NCBI GenBank assembly: GCA_030603365.1
Contig: JAUVXV010000002.1
Location: 160,001 to 224,000, forward strand
DNA length: 64,000 nt
Origin: Candidatus Heimdallarchaeota archaeon
GTDB lineage: Archaea; Asgardarchaeota; Heimdallarchaeia; Heimdallarchaeales; Heimdallarchaeaceae
Reading direction: 5' to 3'
Part shown: positions 800 through 42,157 of the stretch, one piece after another
Position numbering within the stretch: the first letter of the stretch is position 1
Layout: each line of letters opens with the position of its first letter
Translations under genes and position numbers: made by a program
Notes under the pieces: generated by a model
The model's input: the letters and a program-made list of their open reading frames with translations, nothing else
What the model was told of the DNA's origin: nothing
Database searches by the model: none

Positions 800-2522
800 A
801 CAAAATGGATTAATCTCTCCTCATGGTGGAGAATTAGTTGACCTATTAATTATAGATGAAAAAGAACGATATGATCTTGTTGAAAGGGCTAAAACTCTAG
901 TTAAATTGGAATTAACAGAAAGAGTCTTAGCAGATCTTGAATGTATTGCGACTGGAGTCTATTCACCTCTCAAAGGGTTCACAGGAGAGGAAGACTATAA
1001 CAGTATTATCAAAGACATGAAATTGGCAGATGGAACAGTCTGGCCAGTTCCAATCACTTTACAAGTTGAAGAAAACTTTGCAAGTAAAGTGAAAGTCGGA
1101 GATGAAATTGCTTTAACATGGGAAGATACACACTTAGCAATACTAAAAATTTCAAGCATTTACACACCTGATAAAAAGAAGGAAGCAGTAAGTGTTTATG
1201 GTACTGATGAAAGTGAACATCCAGGAGTTGCAGCAGTTTATCAAGGAGGAAGTGTCTATTTAGGAGGAGAGATAATTGTTTTCGAAGATCTTCCACATAA
1301 ATTCTTTAATGAATATAGGTTCACACCTAGAATAACTAGACAGATATTCTCTGAAAAAGGGTGGAAAACAGTTGTTGCATTCCAAACCAGAAATCCAATT
1401 CATAGAGCACATGAACATCTTCAGAAAATAGCTTTAGAATTAGTTGATGGATTATTTGTTAACCCACTTGTTGGTGCAACCAAAAAGGATGATATTCCTC
1501 ATCAAGTTAGAATGGAAACCTATAACGTAATTTTGAACAATTATTATCCTCATGACAGAACTTTTCTTGGAGTTTATCCTGCTAATATGCGGTATGCTGG
1601 TCCTAAGGAAGCTATCCTACATGCAATCAGCAGACAAAATTACGGTTGCTCACACATGATTATCGGAAGAGACCATGCAGGTGTAGGTAAATATTATGGT
1701 ACGTACGATGCTCAGACAATTTTTGATCAATTTTCTAAAGAAGAACTAGCTATCACTCCATTAAAATTCGAACATGCGTTTTACTGTAAATTATGCGAGC
1801 AGATGGTTACTAAACGAACTTGTCCTCACTCAAACGAAGCTCATGTTTTCTTATCTGGAACCAAAGTTAGAGAGATGCTTACAAACAATGAGATGCTTCC
1901 CCGGGAATTCACTCGTCCAGAGGTAGCTATGATACTCATTGATTCTGTTAATAATAAACGAAGAGCAAATGAACAAAAAGGAGTTACTATGCTCTTCACT
2001 GGGTTATCTGGTTCAGGAAAGACAACAATCTCTAAAACAGTTGCTGAAGAGCTAAAGAAACGAGGGTATAAGACCGAAAGACTGGATGCAGATATCGTTA
2101 GACAAAATCTAAGTAAAGGTCTGGGATTCAGTAAAGAAGATCGTGATGAAAATATCAGAAGAGTAGGTTTTGTTTGCCATTTAATGAGCAGAAATGGAAT
2201 TTTTGCATTAATGGCTAACATTGCGCCATATATTTCCGTCCGTGAAGAAATCAGGCAAAGAATTGGAGAATTTATTGAAGTCTATGTTAAATGTCCTCTT
2301 GAAGACTGTGAGAGACGTGATCTCAAAGGTTTATACGCAAAGGCCCGTGCAGGTGAAATTAAAGGATTTACTGGTGTAGACGATCCTTATGAGGAACCTC
2401 AAGCTCCTGAAGTTATCTGTGAAACTGATAAAGAAAGTATTGAAGAAAGTGTACAGAAAGTCTTAGACACGATGGAACAATTAGGATATATTCAACCAAT
2501 AAAGGTTTATGATCCTAACTGA
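792..2522 (+). CDS. sat: Bifunctional sulfate adenylyltransferase / adenylylsulfate kinase (Sat-CysC)
   Basis: FQTRNPIHRAH, MRYAGPKEA and GRDHAG (Sat); GLSGSGKT P-loop and KGLY.KAR.GEIKGFTG.DDPYE (APS kinase); ATG 792 follows GAGGA. Confidence 0.95.
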   Translation: MVEQNGLISPHGGELVDLLIIDEKERYDLVERAKTLVKLELTERVLADLECIATGVYSPLKGFTGEEDYNSIIKDMKLADGTVWPVPITLQVEENFASKVKVGDEIALTWEDTHLAILKISSIYTPDKKKEAVSVYGTDESEHPGVAAVYQGGSVYLGGEIIVFEDLPHKFFNEYRFTPRITRQIFSEKGWKTVVAFQTRNPIHRAHEHLQKIALELVDGLFVNPLVGATKKDDIPHQVRMETYNVILNNYYPHDRTFLGVYPANMRYAGPKEAILHAISRQNYGCSHMIIGRDHAGVGKYYGTYDAQTIFDQFSKEELAITPLKFEHAFYCKLCEQMVTKRTCPHSNEAHVFLSGTKVREMLTNNEMLPREFTRPEVAMILIDSVNNKRRANEQKGVTMLFTGLSGSGKTTISKTVAEELKKRGYKTERLDADIVRQNLSKGLGFSKEDRDENIRRVGFVCHLMSRNGIFALMANIAPYISVREEIRQRIGEFIEVYVKCPLEDCERRDLKGLYAKARAGEIKGFTGVDDPYEEPQAPEVICETDKESIEESVQKVLDTMEQLGYIQPIKVYDPN

Positions 2523-2878
2523 TTTTCCTTTTTTTCCTCTTCTAGAAATATTTTTATCAAATCTCTAGCGATAAATATTGCAGATTCCTTGAATTTGTTC
2601 GGATCTCTATAAAATCCCCATTTTATTAGCAATATATTATCTATCCATGTAAAAATTGTTGGATGAAATAATTCATATAAATGAGTAATTTTTTCAACAT
2701 TAATACCATAATCTTGATTTAAAGCTAAAGCTATTTCTTCAGTTAAGGTTTTAGCTATTTTGTTGATTTTGGCTTCAGATCGATAAAGATCCCACCCTTC
2801 TCTAATAACTGACTCAATCCAGTTTATTAGAATTTCATGAATACTTTCCCAGATGTGTATAGTTTCATATTGCAACAT
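2507..2878 (-). CDS. Hypothetical protein (123 aa, internally duplicated W-I-D/E...W-G/D-x-Y-R motif)
   Basis: ORF track; no recognisable family. Confidence 0.55.
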   Translation of the reverse strand: MLQYETIHIWESIHEILINWIESVIREGWDLYRSEAKINKIAKTLTEEIALALNQDYGINVEKITHLYELFHPTIFTWIDNILLIKWGFYRDPNKFKESAIFIARDLIKIFLEEEKKENQLGS

Positions 2879-2998
2879 TTTTGAATGCCTTCTTTCAATA
2901 TTCTAGTTCTAGTTATTACATATGATATATTGCTAATTTGAGTTTGCCAAATTATTGGAATTAAGTTTTTTGAAATGATTTCTATTCGCTTCAGGCTT

Positions 2999-3193
2999 CT
3001 ACTTCTTTTTCTTTACTTTCATTAGTAATATTTTTCCATCTTCAAACAGTATCCACCTTAATTTGTCACCATTTTTCAATCCAAGTTCATCAACTATTTC
3101 TTTTGGAACCGTTGTTCTTCTTCTACTTTCTCTAATGGTTAGTGAGGTTTCGGATATGAAAATTACTTCATCTATGTTTATCTCTGTCATCAA
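2999..3193 (-). CDS. AbrB/MazE/SpoVT-family DNA-binding protein
   Basis: RTTVPKEIVDELGLKNGDKLRW swapped-hairpin signature. Confidence 0.85.
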   Translation of the reverse strand: MMTEINIDEVIFISETSLTIRESRRRTTVPKEIVDELGLKNGDKLRWILFEDGKILLMKVKKKK

Positions 3194-3223
3194 GTTTTGC
3201 TATTTATAGGACTATTTAAGACT

Positions 3224-38803: not shown

Positions 38804-40621
38804 TTAGTTTATATCTAATTTATCAATTTCTTGTTCAGTGGGAACTCCGTATTCATCTAGTCCTCGTTTTTCATATAACAATTGAAGTGATTTTTCAAAA
38901 TCCTCTTCGCTGACAAAAGCTTTACTTCCTTCCGCTCTACCTGAAGGTAAAGGTTCATTCATGAATCTATTGGGAAGAACATCATAATCAATTGGTTTGT
39001 AATTATCGAACTGGTTGATATTGAAAAGACGTTTAGTTATCCAGATTCTTTGGGCTATTTCCATCATCTCTTCTTTAGATACATCTCTGTCCCATAAGGC
39101 AGATAGTATTTTCTGTCTATCTTCAAATGAGAATCCTCCATCAATTACATAGGAGAAGGTACAAACTACTAGACAATCTATTAGAGATTTGTAATCCTGT
39201 TGTTCAATCAGGGAATCAATTACATCTAATGCGCTCTTATCTGGTACTTCAGCTGTCGCTGGCCATCCTCTCAAATGTGAAGCTCCAACAGCAGCTGTAG
39301 CATAACTCAGTCCAAGACCAAGTTTTCCTCTGGGATCCCAAGCAGCAAAAGGAAGTCCTTTGACATGTATGGCTAAGTTCTCTATTCCCCATTCTTCTGC
39401 AGCTTGAGCTACACCCTTAGCTAATACATTTCCGAATCCTTTTCTATATGCAATCATTTCAATGATTTCTAATAATTTCTCTCCGTTTCCGAATTTCACT
39501 CCTTCAAACTCTGGTCCTTTGAGTAAACCTTTCTCAACTGCTTCCATAGTCATTGCTATTGCACTTCCTGTTGATATTGTATCAAGTCCTAGTTGGTTGC
39601 AGAGATAGTTAGCATGAGAAATAATATCGTTATCACTAATTCCTACATTTCCTCCAAACATAGCAAGAGTTTCGTATTCAGGTCGAGCTATTTCTATCTT
39701 GTCTTCAGGAACCCAGTCAAAGTCTTTTGCATCCAAAGTAGATGAGCATCCTATTGGACAACCGTAACATGGTCTCTTAATTGCTGTATAAGCTTCTGCC
39801 ATATCAGGACCACCTATTTTTTTGTAATCTTCATATTCTCCTGATTGCCAATTACGTGTTGGATATTGGCTCATCTCATTAGCGAAACTAACAGCACTGC
39901 TAGTTCCGTAGGTAAACATTTCTGAACCAGAATCTTTTGCTTTCTTAGCTCTTGCCATTATATCTTTTCGAATCTCATCTATTTTCTCTTGATTTCCATT
40001 AGCAGGTTTTTCTGAACCTTTTACTGCTAAAGCTTTGAGATTCTTTGATCCAAAGACAGCTCCTAATCCTCCCCTGCCGGGATTGCGGTGACTATCAGCT
40101 GTTGGGCAAGATATAGCAACAAGATTTTCTCCAGCTGGACCAATACAAATAACCCTCATTCTGGGTTCGTTTTCATCTTCTTTTATCTTATCTTCAGTTT
40201 CATAAGAGAGTTTACCCCAAAGATGTTTTGCGTCCTTGATTTCAATGGCATCGTCTTTGATTGATACATAAACTGGATTAGATGATTTACCTTCCAGAAT
40301 AATAAGGTCATATCCTGCAAATCTGATTTCGGGTCCCAAAAATCCTCCTACATGACTATCTAGAAAATGGTTTGTGAGAGGACTCTTAGTACCTACTGCA
40401 TAACGTCCAGTGATTGGTATGCGTGTACCTGATGCTGGACCTGGTGCGATTATGATCTTATTTTCAGGTGATAAGGGATCAATTTTTTTCTGAAGTTCTT
40501 TGTATAGATAATATGAAATAAATCCAGTTCCACCTATATATTTCTTGTAAACGTCTTCTGGAATTTCTTCTTTTTTCATTGTTCTGTTTGAAAGATTTAT
40601 CCTTAGAAGTTTATTTCTCAT
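38804..40621 (-). CDS. aor: Tungsten aldehyde:ferredoxin oxidoreductase family (paralogue of 33222-35039)
   Basis: Same AOR motifs; long peptide blocks shared with the first copy. Confidence 0.93.
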   Translation of the reverse strand: MRNKLLRINLSNRTMKKEEIPEDVYKKYIGGTGFISYYLYKELQKKIDPLSPENKIIIAPGPASGTRIPITGRYAVGTKSPLTNHFLDSHVGGFLGPEIRFAGYDLIILEGKSSNPVYVSIKDDAIEIKDAKHLWGKLSYETEDKIKEDENEPRMRVICIGPAGENLVAISCPTADSHRNPGRGGLGAVFGSKNLKALAVKGSEKPANGNQEKIDEIRKDIMARAKKAKDSGSEMFTYGTSSAVSFANEMSQYPTRNWQSGEYEDYKKIGGPDMAEAYTAIKRPCYGCPIGCSSTLDAKDFDWVPEDKIEIARPEYETLAMFGGNVGISDNDIISHANYLCNQLGLDTISTGSAIAMTMEAVEKGLLKGPEFEGVKFGNGEKLLEIIEMIAYRKGFGNVLAKGVAQAAEEWGIENLAIHVKGLPFAAWDPRGKLGLGLSYATAAVGASHLRGWPATAEVPDKSALDVIDSLIEQQDYKSLIDCLVVCTFSYVIDGGFSFEDRQKILSALWDRDVSKEEMMEIAQRIWITKRLFNINQFDNYKPIDYDVLPNRFMNEPLPSGRAEGSKAFVSEEDFEKSLQLLYEKRGLDEYGVPTEQEIDKLDIN

Positions 40622-40659: not shown

Positions 40660-40689
40660 GAAAAAAAAAGAAGGAGAGTTTTCACTCTC
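40660..40689 (-). terminator. GAAA-tetraloop hairpin plus U-tract downstream of the interrupted gene
   Basis: Minus strand reads gagagt-gaaa-actctc-cttcttttttttt. Confidence 0.5.
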
Positions 40690-40720
40690 TTTCTATTTGT
40701 CATTTAAACAAGGTGAAATA

Positions 40721-41412
40721 TTAGTTAGGTATTAGAACGCACGTTATGAAACTTGGTTAAACTTACCAGAAGGCGCCTAACCGTCGTTTAAGTGGGTCCC
40801 CTCACGTGCGTTGAGGGGAAGTTATGCAGATTTAGGTCTGCGATAGTTGGTGGAGCATCAGCACCGAGCTAGCTAGGCCCCCTGGTTCAAGGTAGATTTA
40901 CTGAGGGACAACCACTTGTGTAGTTGCGAACCAGATACATGCTGAAACGCACACCTTCTAACTTGCTATGTGTACTTTCATATATAAACTCGTAGAAAAA
41001 TCGCTCAGGGTTACTCGCTCCTGCTACTCTTTTTACCCGGGTAGAGAGCGTATGGCAAGATCAGTCAACTTTCCTGCTCTCAGTGGACGACGGTTCCAAG
41101 AAAACCATTTGTCGTACCATCAATATTCCATAGAATACCAAACAGTTTCATTCCTTCAAAATCCTCAAAGCCTTGTAATGTAAACATCCCATAAAGCATT
41201 CCACCTACTTTCTTAGCCATGATAGTTCCAGTGAAATATCCTGATAGATCTCCCCATGTGATGTAAAACCAAGTTTGTCCATTGACTACAAGAACTCCTG
41301 TTGCTAGGTCTATTTTAGCATTGAACAATGATTTTGTCCATCCAGTTATTATATCGTCTCCAATAGTTCCACCTAATAAGTGCATAGACCAGTAATCTTT
41401 GATATGAAGTAT
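40721..41412 (-). pseudogene. 5'-truncated small beta-rich protein gene, interrupted near its 3' end by a 353-bp insertion
   Basis: Removing 40740-41092 gives ...GGA ACC GTT CTA ATA CCT AAC TAA (GTVLIPN*); the 5' end runs into the divergent pseudogene. Confidence 0.6.
40740..41092 (+). mobile_element. ORF-less, GC-enriched, highly structured 353-bp insertion with a duplicated ACG core
   Basis: ACG at 40737-40739 and 41090-41092; several hairpins; removal restores the host ORF. Confidence 0.65.
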
Positions 41413-42157
41413 GTGGAACCTGCAATTACTACACATGGATATTCCATAGTTAACGATATTCCGTTTACTGCTAATGTTTCTGACACTTTAGTAAAATCAT
41501 GTGGCCCTTTTGTGCTTGATACTTTTAATGTCGCAGAACAGACAATAAAGCTTATTCCCAATCCTTACTGGAATAATATCACCGCATCAAGCGGAGAAGA
41601 TGCTAAATTAGAAGAATTACAATTACACTATATCCCAGATATAAATGAGGCATTATCAAAACTAGTCAATGATGAAGTTGATATTGTAACAGATGAAGTA
41701 TGGAGACTTAAACCATTCACTCAGAATTTAAACATAACCTATCTAAATAGTTTAGCTGGGATAAGTGGACTAATTCTTAACACGAATATTCTCAATCAAA
41801 TTGAAGTAAATATGCTTCACCCAATAATTGGAACAGGTGAACTAACTCCAGAAGGAACAGCTGAGGCAGCACTTAACATAAGAAAAGCTATTAGTCATGC
41901 AATTCCCCGACAAACTATCATTGATAATGAATTTGATGGTATAGGAACTCCTAGTATTTCTCCAGTTCCTGATTCATGTGCAGGATTTGATTCAAGTCTA
42001 ACTCCTTATATTTATGACATAGATTTAGCAAAATCATATCTTGAACTAGCAGAATATACTAGTGAGAAAGCATCATTTAGTGGTTATATCATTAATTGTA
42101 TTTAGTTTACTAGGATTATCTAGTATAGTATCCCTTATACGAAAAAGGAAGAAATAA
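41413..42157 (+). pseudogene. C-terminal fragment of an ABC family-5 (Opp/Dpp) solute-binding protein, 5'-deleted, with a frameshift before the TM anchor
   Basis: CGPF, L.PNPYW, RKAISHAIPR..I and YD.D.AK..L motifs; anchor VISLIVFSLLGLSSIVSLIRKRKK* lies in the +1 frame ending at 42157. Confidence 0.75.

What the first reader, a model, noticed from the sequence alone, without database searches (positions are those of the whole stretch)
40737..41095. ORF-less 353-bp structured insertion with internal guides matching both of its own junctions (bridge-RNA-like element)
Seen in the sequence: a GC-enriched island with no long ORF, flanked by a duplicated ACG (40737-39, 41090-92). Excising it restores a minus-strand gene end (G-T-V-L-I-P-N-stop) followed by a hairpin/U-tract terminator. 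Internal 40779-40790 (aaccgtcgttta) is complementary to the right junction tggacg-ACG-gtt: 9 Watson-Crick pairs, 12 bp with two G-U, including 3 host bases. Internal 40804-40812 (acgtgcgtt, centred on the loop of the tcccctca/tgagggga hairpin) is the exact reverse complement of the left junction a-ACG-cacgt. A third loop (about 40943-40964) holds aacgcac and ttctaa, which match the two halves of the left junction. More stems lie at 40826-41, 40844-71, 40882-934 and 41016-50, with most G-U pairs favouring a + strand RNA. Established knowledge: IS110/IS1111 elements recombine at a short shared core, guided by an element-encoded bridge/seek RNA that pairs with target and donor. Inference: this is a non-autonomous RNA-guided element, or an unknown self-targeting RNA, mobilised in trans. 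Caveats: the canonical bridge-RNA loop layout and a clean left-target guide are not evident, and gtcaactttcctgctctcagtggacg also resembles IS200/IS605 end hairpins.
Basis: partly seen in the sequence, partly recalled or inferred. Interest (0 to 1): 0.88.

Follow-up and report, generated by a model that had tools for sequence, protein, structure and literature searches.

The report
Protein-less IS607 transposon carrying guide RNA
This is a real 353-bp gene-less mobile element inserted in the end of a Heimdallarchaeal gene; it shares its ends with full-size IS607 transposons of the same genome and carries the guide-RNA scaffold of their TnpB-like nuclease, so it is a known kind of hitch-hiking transposon and not a bridge-RNA element.

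Summary
The insertion is real. Removing 353 bp and keeping one ACG gives an exact match to the uninterrupted orthologous site in a sister genome. Homologues of the host protein end in GT(L/V)LIPN-stop.

The element is multi-copy. It occurs in 21 of 24 genomes searched in its genus, whose public records are titled Candidatus Heimdallarchaeota. It shares about 50 nt at one end and 85 nt at the other with 2.7-kb elements of the same genome. Those elements encode an IS607-type serine-recombinase TnpA and a 640-676 aa TnpB-like protein.

- Loop 40805-40810 pairs with the element's terminal bases 40738-40743. Five of seven tested pairs show compensatory changes across 63 copies. This is the loop-to-guide-flank pseudoknot described for TnpB reRNAs.
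- "Guide 1" (40779-40790) forms one strand of an internal helix.

Structure, G-U pairs and a TATA-box promoter all point to a minus-strand RNA, not a plus-strand one.

The terminal trinucleotide (CGT or TGT) always equals the target-side trinucleotide, as expected for serine-recombinase crossover at AC(C/T)GT targets. No IS110 recombinase was found.

Verdict: a non-autonomous IS607-family element carrying a guide-RNA gene. It is a new member of a known kind, of moderate interest.

The parts
40737..41092 (-). The inserted element. It is 353 bp plus one extra copy of the 3-nt core (ACG on the plus strand, CGT on the minus strand), so it can be written 40737-41089 or 40740-41092. Orientation is given as in the full-length relatives: left end (LE) at 41089/41092, right end (RE) at 40737.
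   Evidence: copies and shared ends; empty orthologous site; five more empty sites for sister copies.
41090..41094 (-). Target motif ACCGT (minus strand), lying 5' of the LE. CGT (41090-41092) is the crossover core shared with the RE. AC (41093-41094) is host DNA and a likely TAM and/or TnpA target preference.
   Evidence: ACCGT at 19 copies, ACTGT at 8, two decayed exceptions; the motif is present in uninserted alleles.
41053..41089 (-). LE block CGTCCACTGAG...AAAGTTGAC..ATCTTGCCA, shared with the autonomous IS607-type copies. It forms an imperfect subterminal inverted repeat with 40749-40770 and is the presumed TnpA binding region.
   Evidence: LE/RE complementarity.
40972..40999 (-). Archaeal promoter-like box TTTTCTACGAGTTTATATATGAAAGTAC, with the TATA box at 40981-40988. 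It points towards the RE. The predicted transcription start is about 40955-40960.
   Evidence: Nearly invariant in 7 species and shared by both mini-element subfamilies. The same box lies about 30-50 nt upstream of three host ATG start codons.
40822..40960 (-). A structured 5' RNA domain specific to the mini-elements. Helix P3 pairs 40928-40934 with 40882-40888. Hairpin P4 pairs 40920-40927 with 40908-40915. There are further stems.
   Evidence: 96.9% of cells paired, 6 pairs with double changes, 0/500 shuffles reach the covariation score; covariance model R1 finds the domain only in mini-elements and not in 27 full-length loci.
40797..40819 (-). Hairpin H1 (UCCCCUCA / UGAGGGGA) with apical loop 40805-40811.
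   Evidence: helix 1: 96.8% of cells paired in 63 copies.
40738..40743 (-). 3' strand of the pseudoknot: the element's last bases pair with loop bases 40805-40810.
   Evidence: helix 2: 5 of 7 tested pairs have compensatory double changes, and no shuffle reaches the observed whole-structure measures.
40749..40789 (-). Long hairpin H2: 40786-40789 pairs with 40749-40752, and 40778-40782 pairs with 40755-40759.
   Evidence: helices 3 and 4: 3 of 5 pairs in the upper helix have compensatory changes; 97-99% of cells paired.
40717..40736 (-). Host flank immediately 3' of the RE. It is the predicted guide segment of the read-through RNA, and also the displaced last codons of the host gene (L-I-P-N-stop, 40721-40735).
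   Evidence: The flank is unconstrained in 67 copies. The guide role is inferred from TnpB biology (PMC10711439).
41093..41436 (-). The interrupted host gene, a conserved hypothetical with no Pfam family. Its reading frame now ends ...GTVVH-stop inside the element, at 41080-41082.
40661..40702 (-). Hairpin plus T-tract terminator of the host gene, now 353 bp further from the coding region.

Best explanation
The segment is a protein-less, non-autonomous member of an IS607-family transposon lineage of Heimdallarchaeia. Statements are marked shown or inferred.

ARCHITECTURE
It keeps the roughly 50-nt left end and the 85-nt right end of 2.7-kb autonomous elements in the same genome. Those elements encode, in order, an IS607-type TnpA (MerR helix-turn-helix plus serine recombinase) and a 640-676 aa TnpB-like RuvC/zinc-finger protein. 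Between the two ends the mini-element carries its own archaeal promoter and a structured RNA domain specific to the mini-elements.

MOBILITY (inferred from anatomy)
- TnpA supplied in trans recombines the two ends at a shared trinucleotide, CGT here and TGT in a sister lineage.
- It then recombines the resulting junction with the same trinucleotide in an AC(C/T)GT target.
- This leaves no duplication other than the shared core.

RNA (structure shown, use inferred)
- The minus strand is transcribed from the internal promoter through the right end into host DNA.
- The last 85 nt fold into hairpin H1, long hairpin H2, and a pseudoknot between the H1 loop and the bases just before the flank.
- This is the reRNA/omega-RNA architecture of TnpB nucleases. 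The flank (UCUAAUACC...) would act as the guide.
- A TnpB-like nuclease made by an autonomous copy would load this RNA and cut the empty site (AC(C/T)GT plus flank). That would favour retention of the insertion by homologous repair, as shown for other TnpB elements.

For: MULTI-COPY WITH SHARP ENDS
- 13 matches in the window's own genome, and matches in 21 of 24 genomes of the genus.
- The right end stops at ...CATAACGTGCGT in 67 copies, with unrelated flanks beyond it.

AUTONOMOUS RELATIVES
- They lie at C14:340819-343551, C16:51276 to about 54000, and C16:152732 to about 155450, and share both ends with the window element.
- Their TnpA scores 167 bits on NF033518 'IS607 family transposase' (cut-off 110) and matches ISC1926/IS1535 TnpA structures.
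- Their second ORF matches TnpB/Cas12f only over residues 469-626, with D-E motifs and a zinc finger.

EXACT INSERTION
- One empty orthologous site for this copy.
- For five of six sister copies checked, the joined flanks are gap-free across the junction in the window's own genome.

CORE MATCHING
- 16 of 16 CGT-type and 7 of 7 TGT-type copies have the same trinucleotide at the LE junction and at the RE end.

RNA
- Pseudoknot and H2 covariation; central-domain covariation.
- Minus-strand z = -3.54 against plus-strand z = -0.38.
- Promoter box shared with host genes.

PRECEDENT
- IS607 reRNAs need a pseudoknot between an apical loop and the nucleotides flanking the guide, and IS607 recombines at matching dinucleotides (PMC10711439).
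- Protein-less PATEs that encode omega-RNAs acted on in trans are described for IS200/IS605 (PMC10055086).
Against: - No expression data: no RNA run holds the stretch.
- No Rfam family matches, including the IS607-associated RAGATH-18.
- The nuclease partner is atypical. It is about 250 aa longer than usual, it falls below the TnpB family cut-offs, and its RuvC-III motif reads THDNAA (THKNAA in one copy). Its activity is therefore unproven.
- Only about 135 of the 353 bp are shared with the autonomous copies. The promoter and the 5' RNA domain are absent from them, so the element is not a simple deletion derivative.
- The G-U against A-C strand count in the right-end module is only 31 to 18, and the cells are not independent.
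Confidence: 0.85

Rival explanations
1. Inert MITE. The element is mobilised by IS607 TnpA, but its RNA is not made or not used. The conserved right end is conserved only as a TnpA-binding DNA site and as a relic of the parental reRNA.
For: There is no expression evidence. The right end must in any case be conserved for transposition. The subterminal LE/RE inverted repeat never varies, as a protein-binding site would.
Against: Compensatory double changes at five pseudoknot positions and three H2 positions across 63 copies imply selection on base pairing, not on a fixed protein site. Mini-elements of two subfamilies keep a promoter box and a covarying 5' domain that the autonomous copies lack. 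The minus-strand fold has z = -3.54.
Confidence: 0.08
2. Functional RNA, but not a TnpB guide. The promoter-driven RNA might instead act as a regulator or decoy of the transposon's proteins. Alternatively its loop might pair with the core DNA to assist TnpA recombination, which would be a bridge-like role within an IS607 system.
For: The loop is complementary to the very bases that include the recombination core, and it covaries with them. The 5' domain is absent from elements that encode the nuclease. RuvC-III of the partner is unusual.
Against: The same loop-to-3'-end pairing is the established reRNA pseudoknot (PMC10711439). Serine recombinases of this family act without RNA (established knowledge; Chen et al. 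2018 as cited in that paper). Nothing pairs with variable flanks.
Confidence: 0.05
3. One reading: a non-autonomous IS110/IS1111-type element whose bridge/seek RNA pairs with target and donor junctions.
For: A short shared core at both junctions, internal loops complementary to junction sequences, and no ORF.
Against: No DEDD/IS110 transposase in the assembly, while the control genomes give matches. The longer copies carry IS607 TnpA and a TnpB-like ORF instead. The loops pair with the element's own sequence and do not track flanks. The RNA strand is opposite to the one proposed.
Confidence: 0.02

Closest known systems
IS607-family insertion sequences (IS607, IS1535, ISC1926, ISXfa1, ISFba1)
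   Same: The autonomous partners encode a MerR-HTH serine-recombinase TnpA followed by a TnpB-type ORF. There are no terminal inverted repeats at the tips and no target duplication beyond a short core shared by LE, RE and target. The reRNA lies at the right end.
   Different: The window copy has no genes. The core behaves as a trinucleotide (C/T)GT preceded by AC in the target, rather than the GG dinucleotide of IS607/ISXfa1. The TnpB-like partner is 640-676 aa, against an average of about 390 aa (PMC11061315). The host is Heimdallarchaeia.
PATEs: protein-less IS200/IS605 derivatives that encode omega-RNAs (Meers et al. 2023, PMC10055086)
   Same: Minimal elements that keep only the transposon ends plus a guide-RNA scaffold. 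They depend on TnpA and TnpB supplied in trans.
   Different: PATEs are moved as single strands by a Y1 (HUH) transposase that recognises subterminal hairpins. This element has IS607-type ends and serine-recombinase logic. It also carries its own TATA-box promoter and a 5' RNA domain not found in the autonomous copies.
TnpB reRNA / omega-RNA (ISDra2, ISXfa1, ISFba1; Rfam RAGATH-18)
   Same: Same strand as tnpB, running to the right end and into the flank. There are stem-loops plus a pseudoknot between an apical loop and the nucleotides that abut the guide.
   Different: No sequence or covariance-model similarity to any Rfam family. The conserved core is only about 85 nt. Expression and protein binding are untested.
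IS110/IS1111 bridge (seek) RNA elements
   Same: Recombination at a short core shared by the element ends and the target, and a structured non-coding RNA encoded by the element.
   Different: No DEDD recombinase, no target- and donor-binding loops that covary with flanks, a different recombinase family in the full-length copies, and the RNA lies at the 3' end of a nuclease gene.

Membership tests
IS607 family (as a non-autonomous member) | The autonomous relatives encode a serine-recombinase TnpA with an N-terminal MerR-type HTH. | tested here: met
   PF00376 plus PF00239. NF033518 scores 167.5 bits against a cut-off of 110. Three such genes in the genome, all inside elements with these ends. 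Structures of ISC1926 and IS1535 TnpA match.
IS607 family (as a non-autonomous member) | The window element shares both termini with those autonomous elements. | tested here: met
   RE 85 nt at 89-95% identity. LE CGTCGTCCACTGAG...ATCTTGCCA is shared with the C14 copy.
IS607 family (as a non-autonomous member) | Insertion by crossover at a short sequence identical in LE, RE and target, with no other target duplication. | tested here: met
   Empty sites. LE-junction core equals RE core in 16/16 CGT and 7/7 TGT copies.
IS607 family (as a non-autonomous member) | A double-stranded circular intermediate, with TnpA sufficient for movement. | not testable with these tools
   Needs excision or circle-junction PCR, or a mobilisation assay.
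TnpB reRNA / omega-RNA | Encoded at the 3' end of tnpB, on the same strand, reaching the transposon right end and reading into a variable flank. | tested here: met
   In full-length copies the tnpB stop lies 64 nt before the RE. Flanks are unconstrained in 67 copies.
TnpB reRNA / omega-RNA | A pseudoknot between an apical loop and the nucleotides adjoining the guide. | tested here: met
   5 of 7 tested pairs have compensatory changes, and no shuffle reaches the observed whole-structure measures. The definition of the feature is from PMC10711439.
TnpB reRNA / omega-RNA | The RNA is expressed and bound by the nuclease, and directs TAM-dependent cleavage. | not testable with these tools
   No test of expression, nuclease binding or TAM-dependent cleavage could be run with these tools.
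TnpB reRNA / omega-RNA | A match to a curated reRNA family such as RAGATH-18. | tested here: not met
   No Rfam match at the gathering threshold in the window, and none at E up to 10 inside the element itself apart from one chance snoRNA-model hit (E 3.8) across its right junction.
TnpB family (the partner protein) | RuvC D-E-D triad with a zinc finger, scoring above the family threshold. | tested here: inconclusive
   Only residues about 470-626 match: PF07282 at 24-26 bits (cut-off 26.3), NF040570 at 19-29 bits (cut-off 100), and PDB 8hr5 at E 3.6e-6. GVDIN and KIE(R/Q/E)L are present. RuvC-III reads THDNAA or THKNAA.
IS110/IS1111 bridge-RNA elements | A DEDD (RuvC-like) plus Tnp recombinase encoded by autonomous copies. 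| tested here: not met
   PF01548: no match in the 89%-complete assembly, while 6 of the 14 control genomes give matches. The longer copies carry other genes.
IS110/IS1111 bridge-RNA elements | RNA loops whose guides pair with target and donor flanks and covary with them. | tested here: not met
   Each copy's own flanks match its interior no better than foreign flanks do. The loops covary with the element's own bases.
IS200/IS605 PATE | Mobilised by a Y1/HUH TnpA through subterminal DNA hairpins. | tested here: not met
   Every full-length copy with these ends carries a serine recombinase and no Y1 gene.

The most novel reading that the evidence does not exclude
The mini-element may be more than a stripped transposon. 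It may be a self-contained, promoter-driven guide-RNA gene.

Its 5' domain (40822-40960) is absent from every nuclease-encoding copy searched, yet it is kept with covariation in two mini-element subfamilies. That domain could give the RNA an advantage in capturing the oversized TnpB-like protein, or could serve another role.

The same three terminal bases serve at once as the recombinase crossover core, as part of the target/TAM motif, and as a pseudoknot strand. Target choice and RNA fold therefore have to co-evolve. In this reading a Heimdallarchaeal IS607 lineage has split into a protein-coding partner and a separately evolving RNA-only partner.
Probability: 0.15. Interest if true: 0.6.

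Novelty: new member of a known kind. Interest (0 to 1): 0.4.

Why it matters
It replaces an exciting but wrong reading (a bridge-RNA element in Asgard archaea) with a well-supported one.

It documents, with exact empty sites, an RNA-only hitch-hiker of IS607/TnpB transposons in Heimdallarchaeia. These archaea are among the closest relatives of eukaryotes, and IS607 TnpBs are the proposed source of eukaryotic Fanzor2.

It gives a natural covariation data set for the reRNA pseudoknot: 63 copies, five pseudoknot pairs with compensatory changes. It shows that one trinucleotide is shared by the recombinase core, the target motif and the RNA fold.

It also points to a compact (about 85 nt) guide-RNA core and a candidate AC(C/T)GT TAM for an unusually large TnpB-like nuclease. 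Both could be tested directly.

Tried and rejected
- Rfam, at gathering threshold and at E up to 10: no family matched. This argues against housekeeping RNAs (RNase P, SRP), group II introns and RAGATH-18.
- ARAGORN: no tRNA-like gene.
- Public runs: no RNA holder is listed, so nothing can be said about expression.
- Contigs of four cold-seep or sediment metagenomes laid on the locus gave no contig bridging an empty site. They did show many different flanks starting at 40737, and one starting at 41095.
- A second empty site for the full-length C14 copy: the only homologue found is a diverged beta-helix paralogue, so this was uninformative.
- Homology of the mini-element's central domain to the 3' coding part of tnpB: none by BLAST, and none by covariance model R1 in 27 full-length loci (best E 0.39).
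- The idea that 'guide 1' (ACGACGGUU) tracks the target motif: TGT-type copies mostly keep ACGGU. The G/A change at that position covaries instead with its helix partner.
- The idea that contig ends C7, C6, C3 and C2 are a full-length parent: 177 + 139 nt is less than 353, and a metagenome contig joins the C3 flank to a mini-sized copy. They are more likely two further mini-copies that broke the assembly.
- A hammerhead-like CUGAUG in the 5' domain is not conserved among copies.

Full report
THE OBSERVATION

The region 40737-41095 contains no ORF of 40 aa or more wholly inside it. Its GC content is about 0.46, against 0.26-0.40 around it. A minus-strand ORF (41436 to 41080) runs into the segment and stops there as ...GFLGTVVH.

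Six-frame protein searches of the genus found seven homologues. All end GT(L/V)LI(P/H)N-stop, followed by a hairpin and T-tract. The closest is in genome G018 at 81% identity. It reads AATGGTCTTCTTGGAACCGTCCTAATACACAACTAA. The window with 353 bp removed and one ACG kept reads AATGGTTTTCTTGGAACCGTTCTAATACCTAACTAA. The two align base for base. Removing 359 bp instead would lose two conserved codons.

So the insertion, its size, the duplicated ACG and the restored gene end are all confirmed.

WHAT IT IS

The segment is repeated. There are 13 matches in the window's own genome, and matches in 21 of 24 genomes of the genus. None was found in 16 genomes of other genera of the order. Public records that carry the associated nuclease gene are titled Candidatus Heimdallarchaeota, including AB_125.

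Three copies in this genome are 2.7 kb long: C14:340819-343551, C16:51276 to about 54000, and C16:152732 to about 155450. On the strand corresponding to the window's minus strand they encode two proteins.
- The first is a 197-aa protein with MerR HTH and resolvase domains. It scores 167 bits on NCBIfam 'IS607 family transposase' (cut-off 110) and matches the solved ISC1926 and IS1535 TnpA catalytic domains.
- The second is a 640-676 aa protein. Only its last 160 residues or so match TnpB/Cas12f models. They carry GVDIN, KIE(R/Q/E)L, an H/C-x2-C...C-x2-C zinc finger, and THDNAA.

The window element shares with these copies the last 85 nt of the right end (RE, at window 40737-40821) and the first 50 nt or so of the left end (LE, at 41053-41089).

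It is therefore a non-autonomous IS607-family element. No IS110-type DEDD gene was found in the 89%-complete assembly, while control genomes gave matches.

BOUNDARIES AND TARGET

In 67 copies the RE ends sharply at ...CATAACGTGCGT, and the flank beyond it is unconstrained.

At the LE, 19 copies read nACCGT followed by the element, 8 read ACTGT, and 2 decayed copies differ. The empty G018 site already contains AACCGT, so AC(C/T)GT is host DNA.

I then joined the flanks of sister mini-elements from other genomes. For six of them, both flanks aligned as one stretch in the window's own genome. Five of these are gap-free across the junction. One example is AAAAGCGAACCGTAAGCATC in C3. The sixth (locus L024) has a 12-nt extra piece, described under minor observations.

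The trinucleotide at the LE junction equals the last three bases of the RE in 16 of 16 CGT-type copies and 7 of 7 TGT-type copies. This is the signature of serine-recombinase crossover at a short sequence shared by both ends and the target, as described for IS607 with GG dinucleotides (PMC10711439).

THE 'GUIDES'

I aligned 63 right ends of 95 nt each (alignment A2) and counted pairs for a structure that I specified myself.
- The 7-nt loop of the UCCCCUCA/UGAGGGGA hairpin was tested as seven pairs against the element's last seven bases (40805-40811 with 40737-40743). Five pairs show compensatory double changes (C-G to U-A, G-C to A-U, A-U to U-A and so on). The pair that involves the terminal U is not supported, which leaves six supported pairs (40805-40810 with 40738-40743).
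- The whole-structure measures are reached by 0 of 500 shuffles and exceed all slid controls.
- The intermediates are mostly G-U pairs on the minus strand.
Its partner is the element's own terminus, not host DNA.
Three of the five upper pairs show compensatory changes.
- Its resemblance to the right junction is limited to this subfamily's LE sequence plus the constant ACCGT.
- The 'third loop' match (ttctaa) is conserved in copies from G024 and G012 that have different flanks.
- In seven complete copies, each copy's own flanks match its interior no better than other copies' flanks do.

A pseudoknot between an apical loop and the nucleotides adjoining the guide is the published hallmark of TnpB reRNAs, including IS607 ones, where it is required for activity (PMC10711439; PMC11061315).

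STRAND AND TRANSCRIPTION

Several lines favour the minus strand.
- The minus strand of 40717-40962 folds to -78.3 kcal/mol, z = -3.54, with 0 of 200 shuffles as good. The plus strand gives z = -0.38.
- RNAalifold on seven species favours the minus strand, -52.2 against -45.8 kcal/mol.
- Helices P3 and P4 of the central domain (40882-40934) are 96.9% paired in 13 copies of two subfamilies, with six doubly changed pairs. Their conserved G-U pairs exist only on the minus strand.
- The most conserved stretch of the LE half is TTTTCTACGrGTTTATATATGAAAGTAC (40972-40999, minus strand). Near-identical boxes lie 30-50 nt upstream of three host start codons.

I therefore read that stretch as a BRE/TATA promoter. 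It would drive an RNA of about 220 nt through the RE into the flank. This last point is an inference. No RNA data are available.

NOT A SIMPLE DELETION DERIVATIVE

Neither the promoter box nor the central domain occurs in the full-length copies.
- BLAST finds nothing.
- A covariance model of P3/P4 (R1) scores 62-80 bits on the three assembled mini-elements of this genome, and at best E 0.39 in 27 full-length loci.

Mini-elements of 251-406 bp occur in at least two subfamilies and in many species. Mean column identity is 85% over the whole length in seven species.

Copies 96-99% identical to the window copy lie at four contig ends of this assembly. A metagenome contig shows that one of them is mini-sized. 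This suggests recent activity.

MECHANISM

Shown:
- the ends, the core logic and the target motif;
- the RNA fold with covariation;
- the association of the same right end with tnpA and a tnpB-like gene.

Inferred:
- mobilisation in trans by TnpA through an excised circle;
- transcription from the internal promoter;
- loading of the RNA by the TnpB-like protein, with the flank as guide and AC(C/T)GT as TAM;
- cutting of empty sites so that the insertion is restored by repair, as demonstrated for IS605-family TnpB and proposed for PATEs (PMC10055086).

The terminal trinucleotide is at once the crossover core, part of the target motif and a pseudoknot strand. This explains the three-way covariation.

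COMPARISON AND VERDICT

The element works like, and belongs to, the IS607/TnpB world. It is not an IS110 bridge-RNA element.

It differs from described cases in four ways:
- it is RNA-only yet has IS607-type ends;
- it has its own promoter and 5' domain;
- its host lineage is Heimdallarchaeia;
- its nuclease partner is oversized.

I score it as a new member of a known kind, of moderate interest.

Earlier first-stage notes of this scan, made on other pieces of the same genome, had already flagged the oversized TnpBs and a predicted omega-RNA pairing at the C14 right end. I tested that pairing by covariation here.

MINOR OBSERVATIONS

- The host gene also lacks its N-terminal 50 residues or so. 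It abuts a truncated SBP_bac_5 fragment on the other strand.
- One sister copy (locus L024) has the first 10-11 nt of its LE repeated after its RE, like a circle or tandem junction.
- The RE module is hundreds of times deeper than its flanks in one sediment metagenome.

Noticed in passing
window 41380-42105 (+) and 41386-41436 (-): An SBP_bac_5 solute-binding ORF matches only profile positions 106-282 of 368 and has no N-terminal part. It abuts, head to head, the interrupted host gene. That gene itself lacks the roughly 50 N-terminal residues (signal peptide) present in its 153-168 aa homologues. The G018 orthologue has no SBP fragment at this place. This looks like a rearrangement breakpoint or a pair of gene remnants.
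   Followed up: partly
L009:886-2811 (-), L010:830-2776 (-), L011:799-2826 (-) (= G000 C14 and C16): The TnpB-like ORFs of the autonomous copies are 640-676 aa. RuvC-I appears only after about 430 residues of unassigned sequence. RuvC-III reads THDNAA, with His where the solved homologue 8hr5 has the Asp, and THKNAA in the C16b copy. The first zinc ligand is His. The C16a copy has a TnpA without its HTH.
   Followed up: partly
L024 (G020:C11), RE end at locus position 1501: This 251-bp mini-copy is followed directly by AGACTTCTGT, the first 10-11 nt of its own left end. That piece is absent from the empty orthologous site in G000 C14:12745-13053. It looks like the remnant of a tandem copy or of an integrated circle junction (RE-core-LE).
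   Followed up: partly
L016 (G008:C1), LE flank, locus positions about 1480-1499: The host flank of this copy (agttatatatgaaagatata) shares a 13-nt exact match with the interior of the mini-elements, at their promoter box. This suggests insertion into another copy or into a similar promoter.
   Followed up: no
window 40737-40822: In the contigs of one marine-sediment metagenome the summed word depth over the 85-nt right-end module is 1200-3200, against about 5-25 over the rest of the element and its flanks. The module is extremely abundant in that community.
   Followed up: no
window 38804-40621 (-): An aldehyde:ferredoxin oxidoreductase gene (AFOR_N plus AFOR_C) starts about 115 nt downstream of the element on the same strand. 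Only the host gene's terminator lies between it and the element's outward-reading promoter, so read-through into this gene is conceivable.
   Followed up: no
G000 C14:115077-115104 and C17:16815: A solo 28-nt right-end tip and a solo left end (AACCGT|GAACAACTGAAAG...ATCTTGCCA), each without a partner end nearby. They are probably fragments of decayed copies.
   Followed up: no
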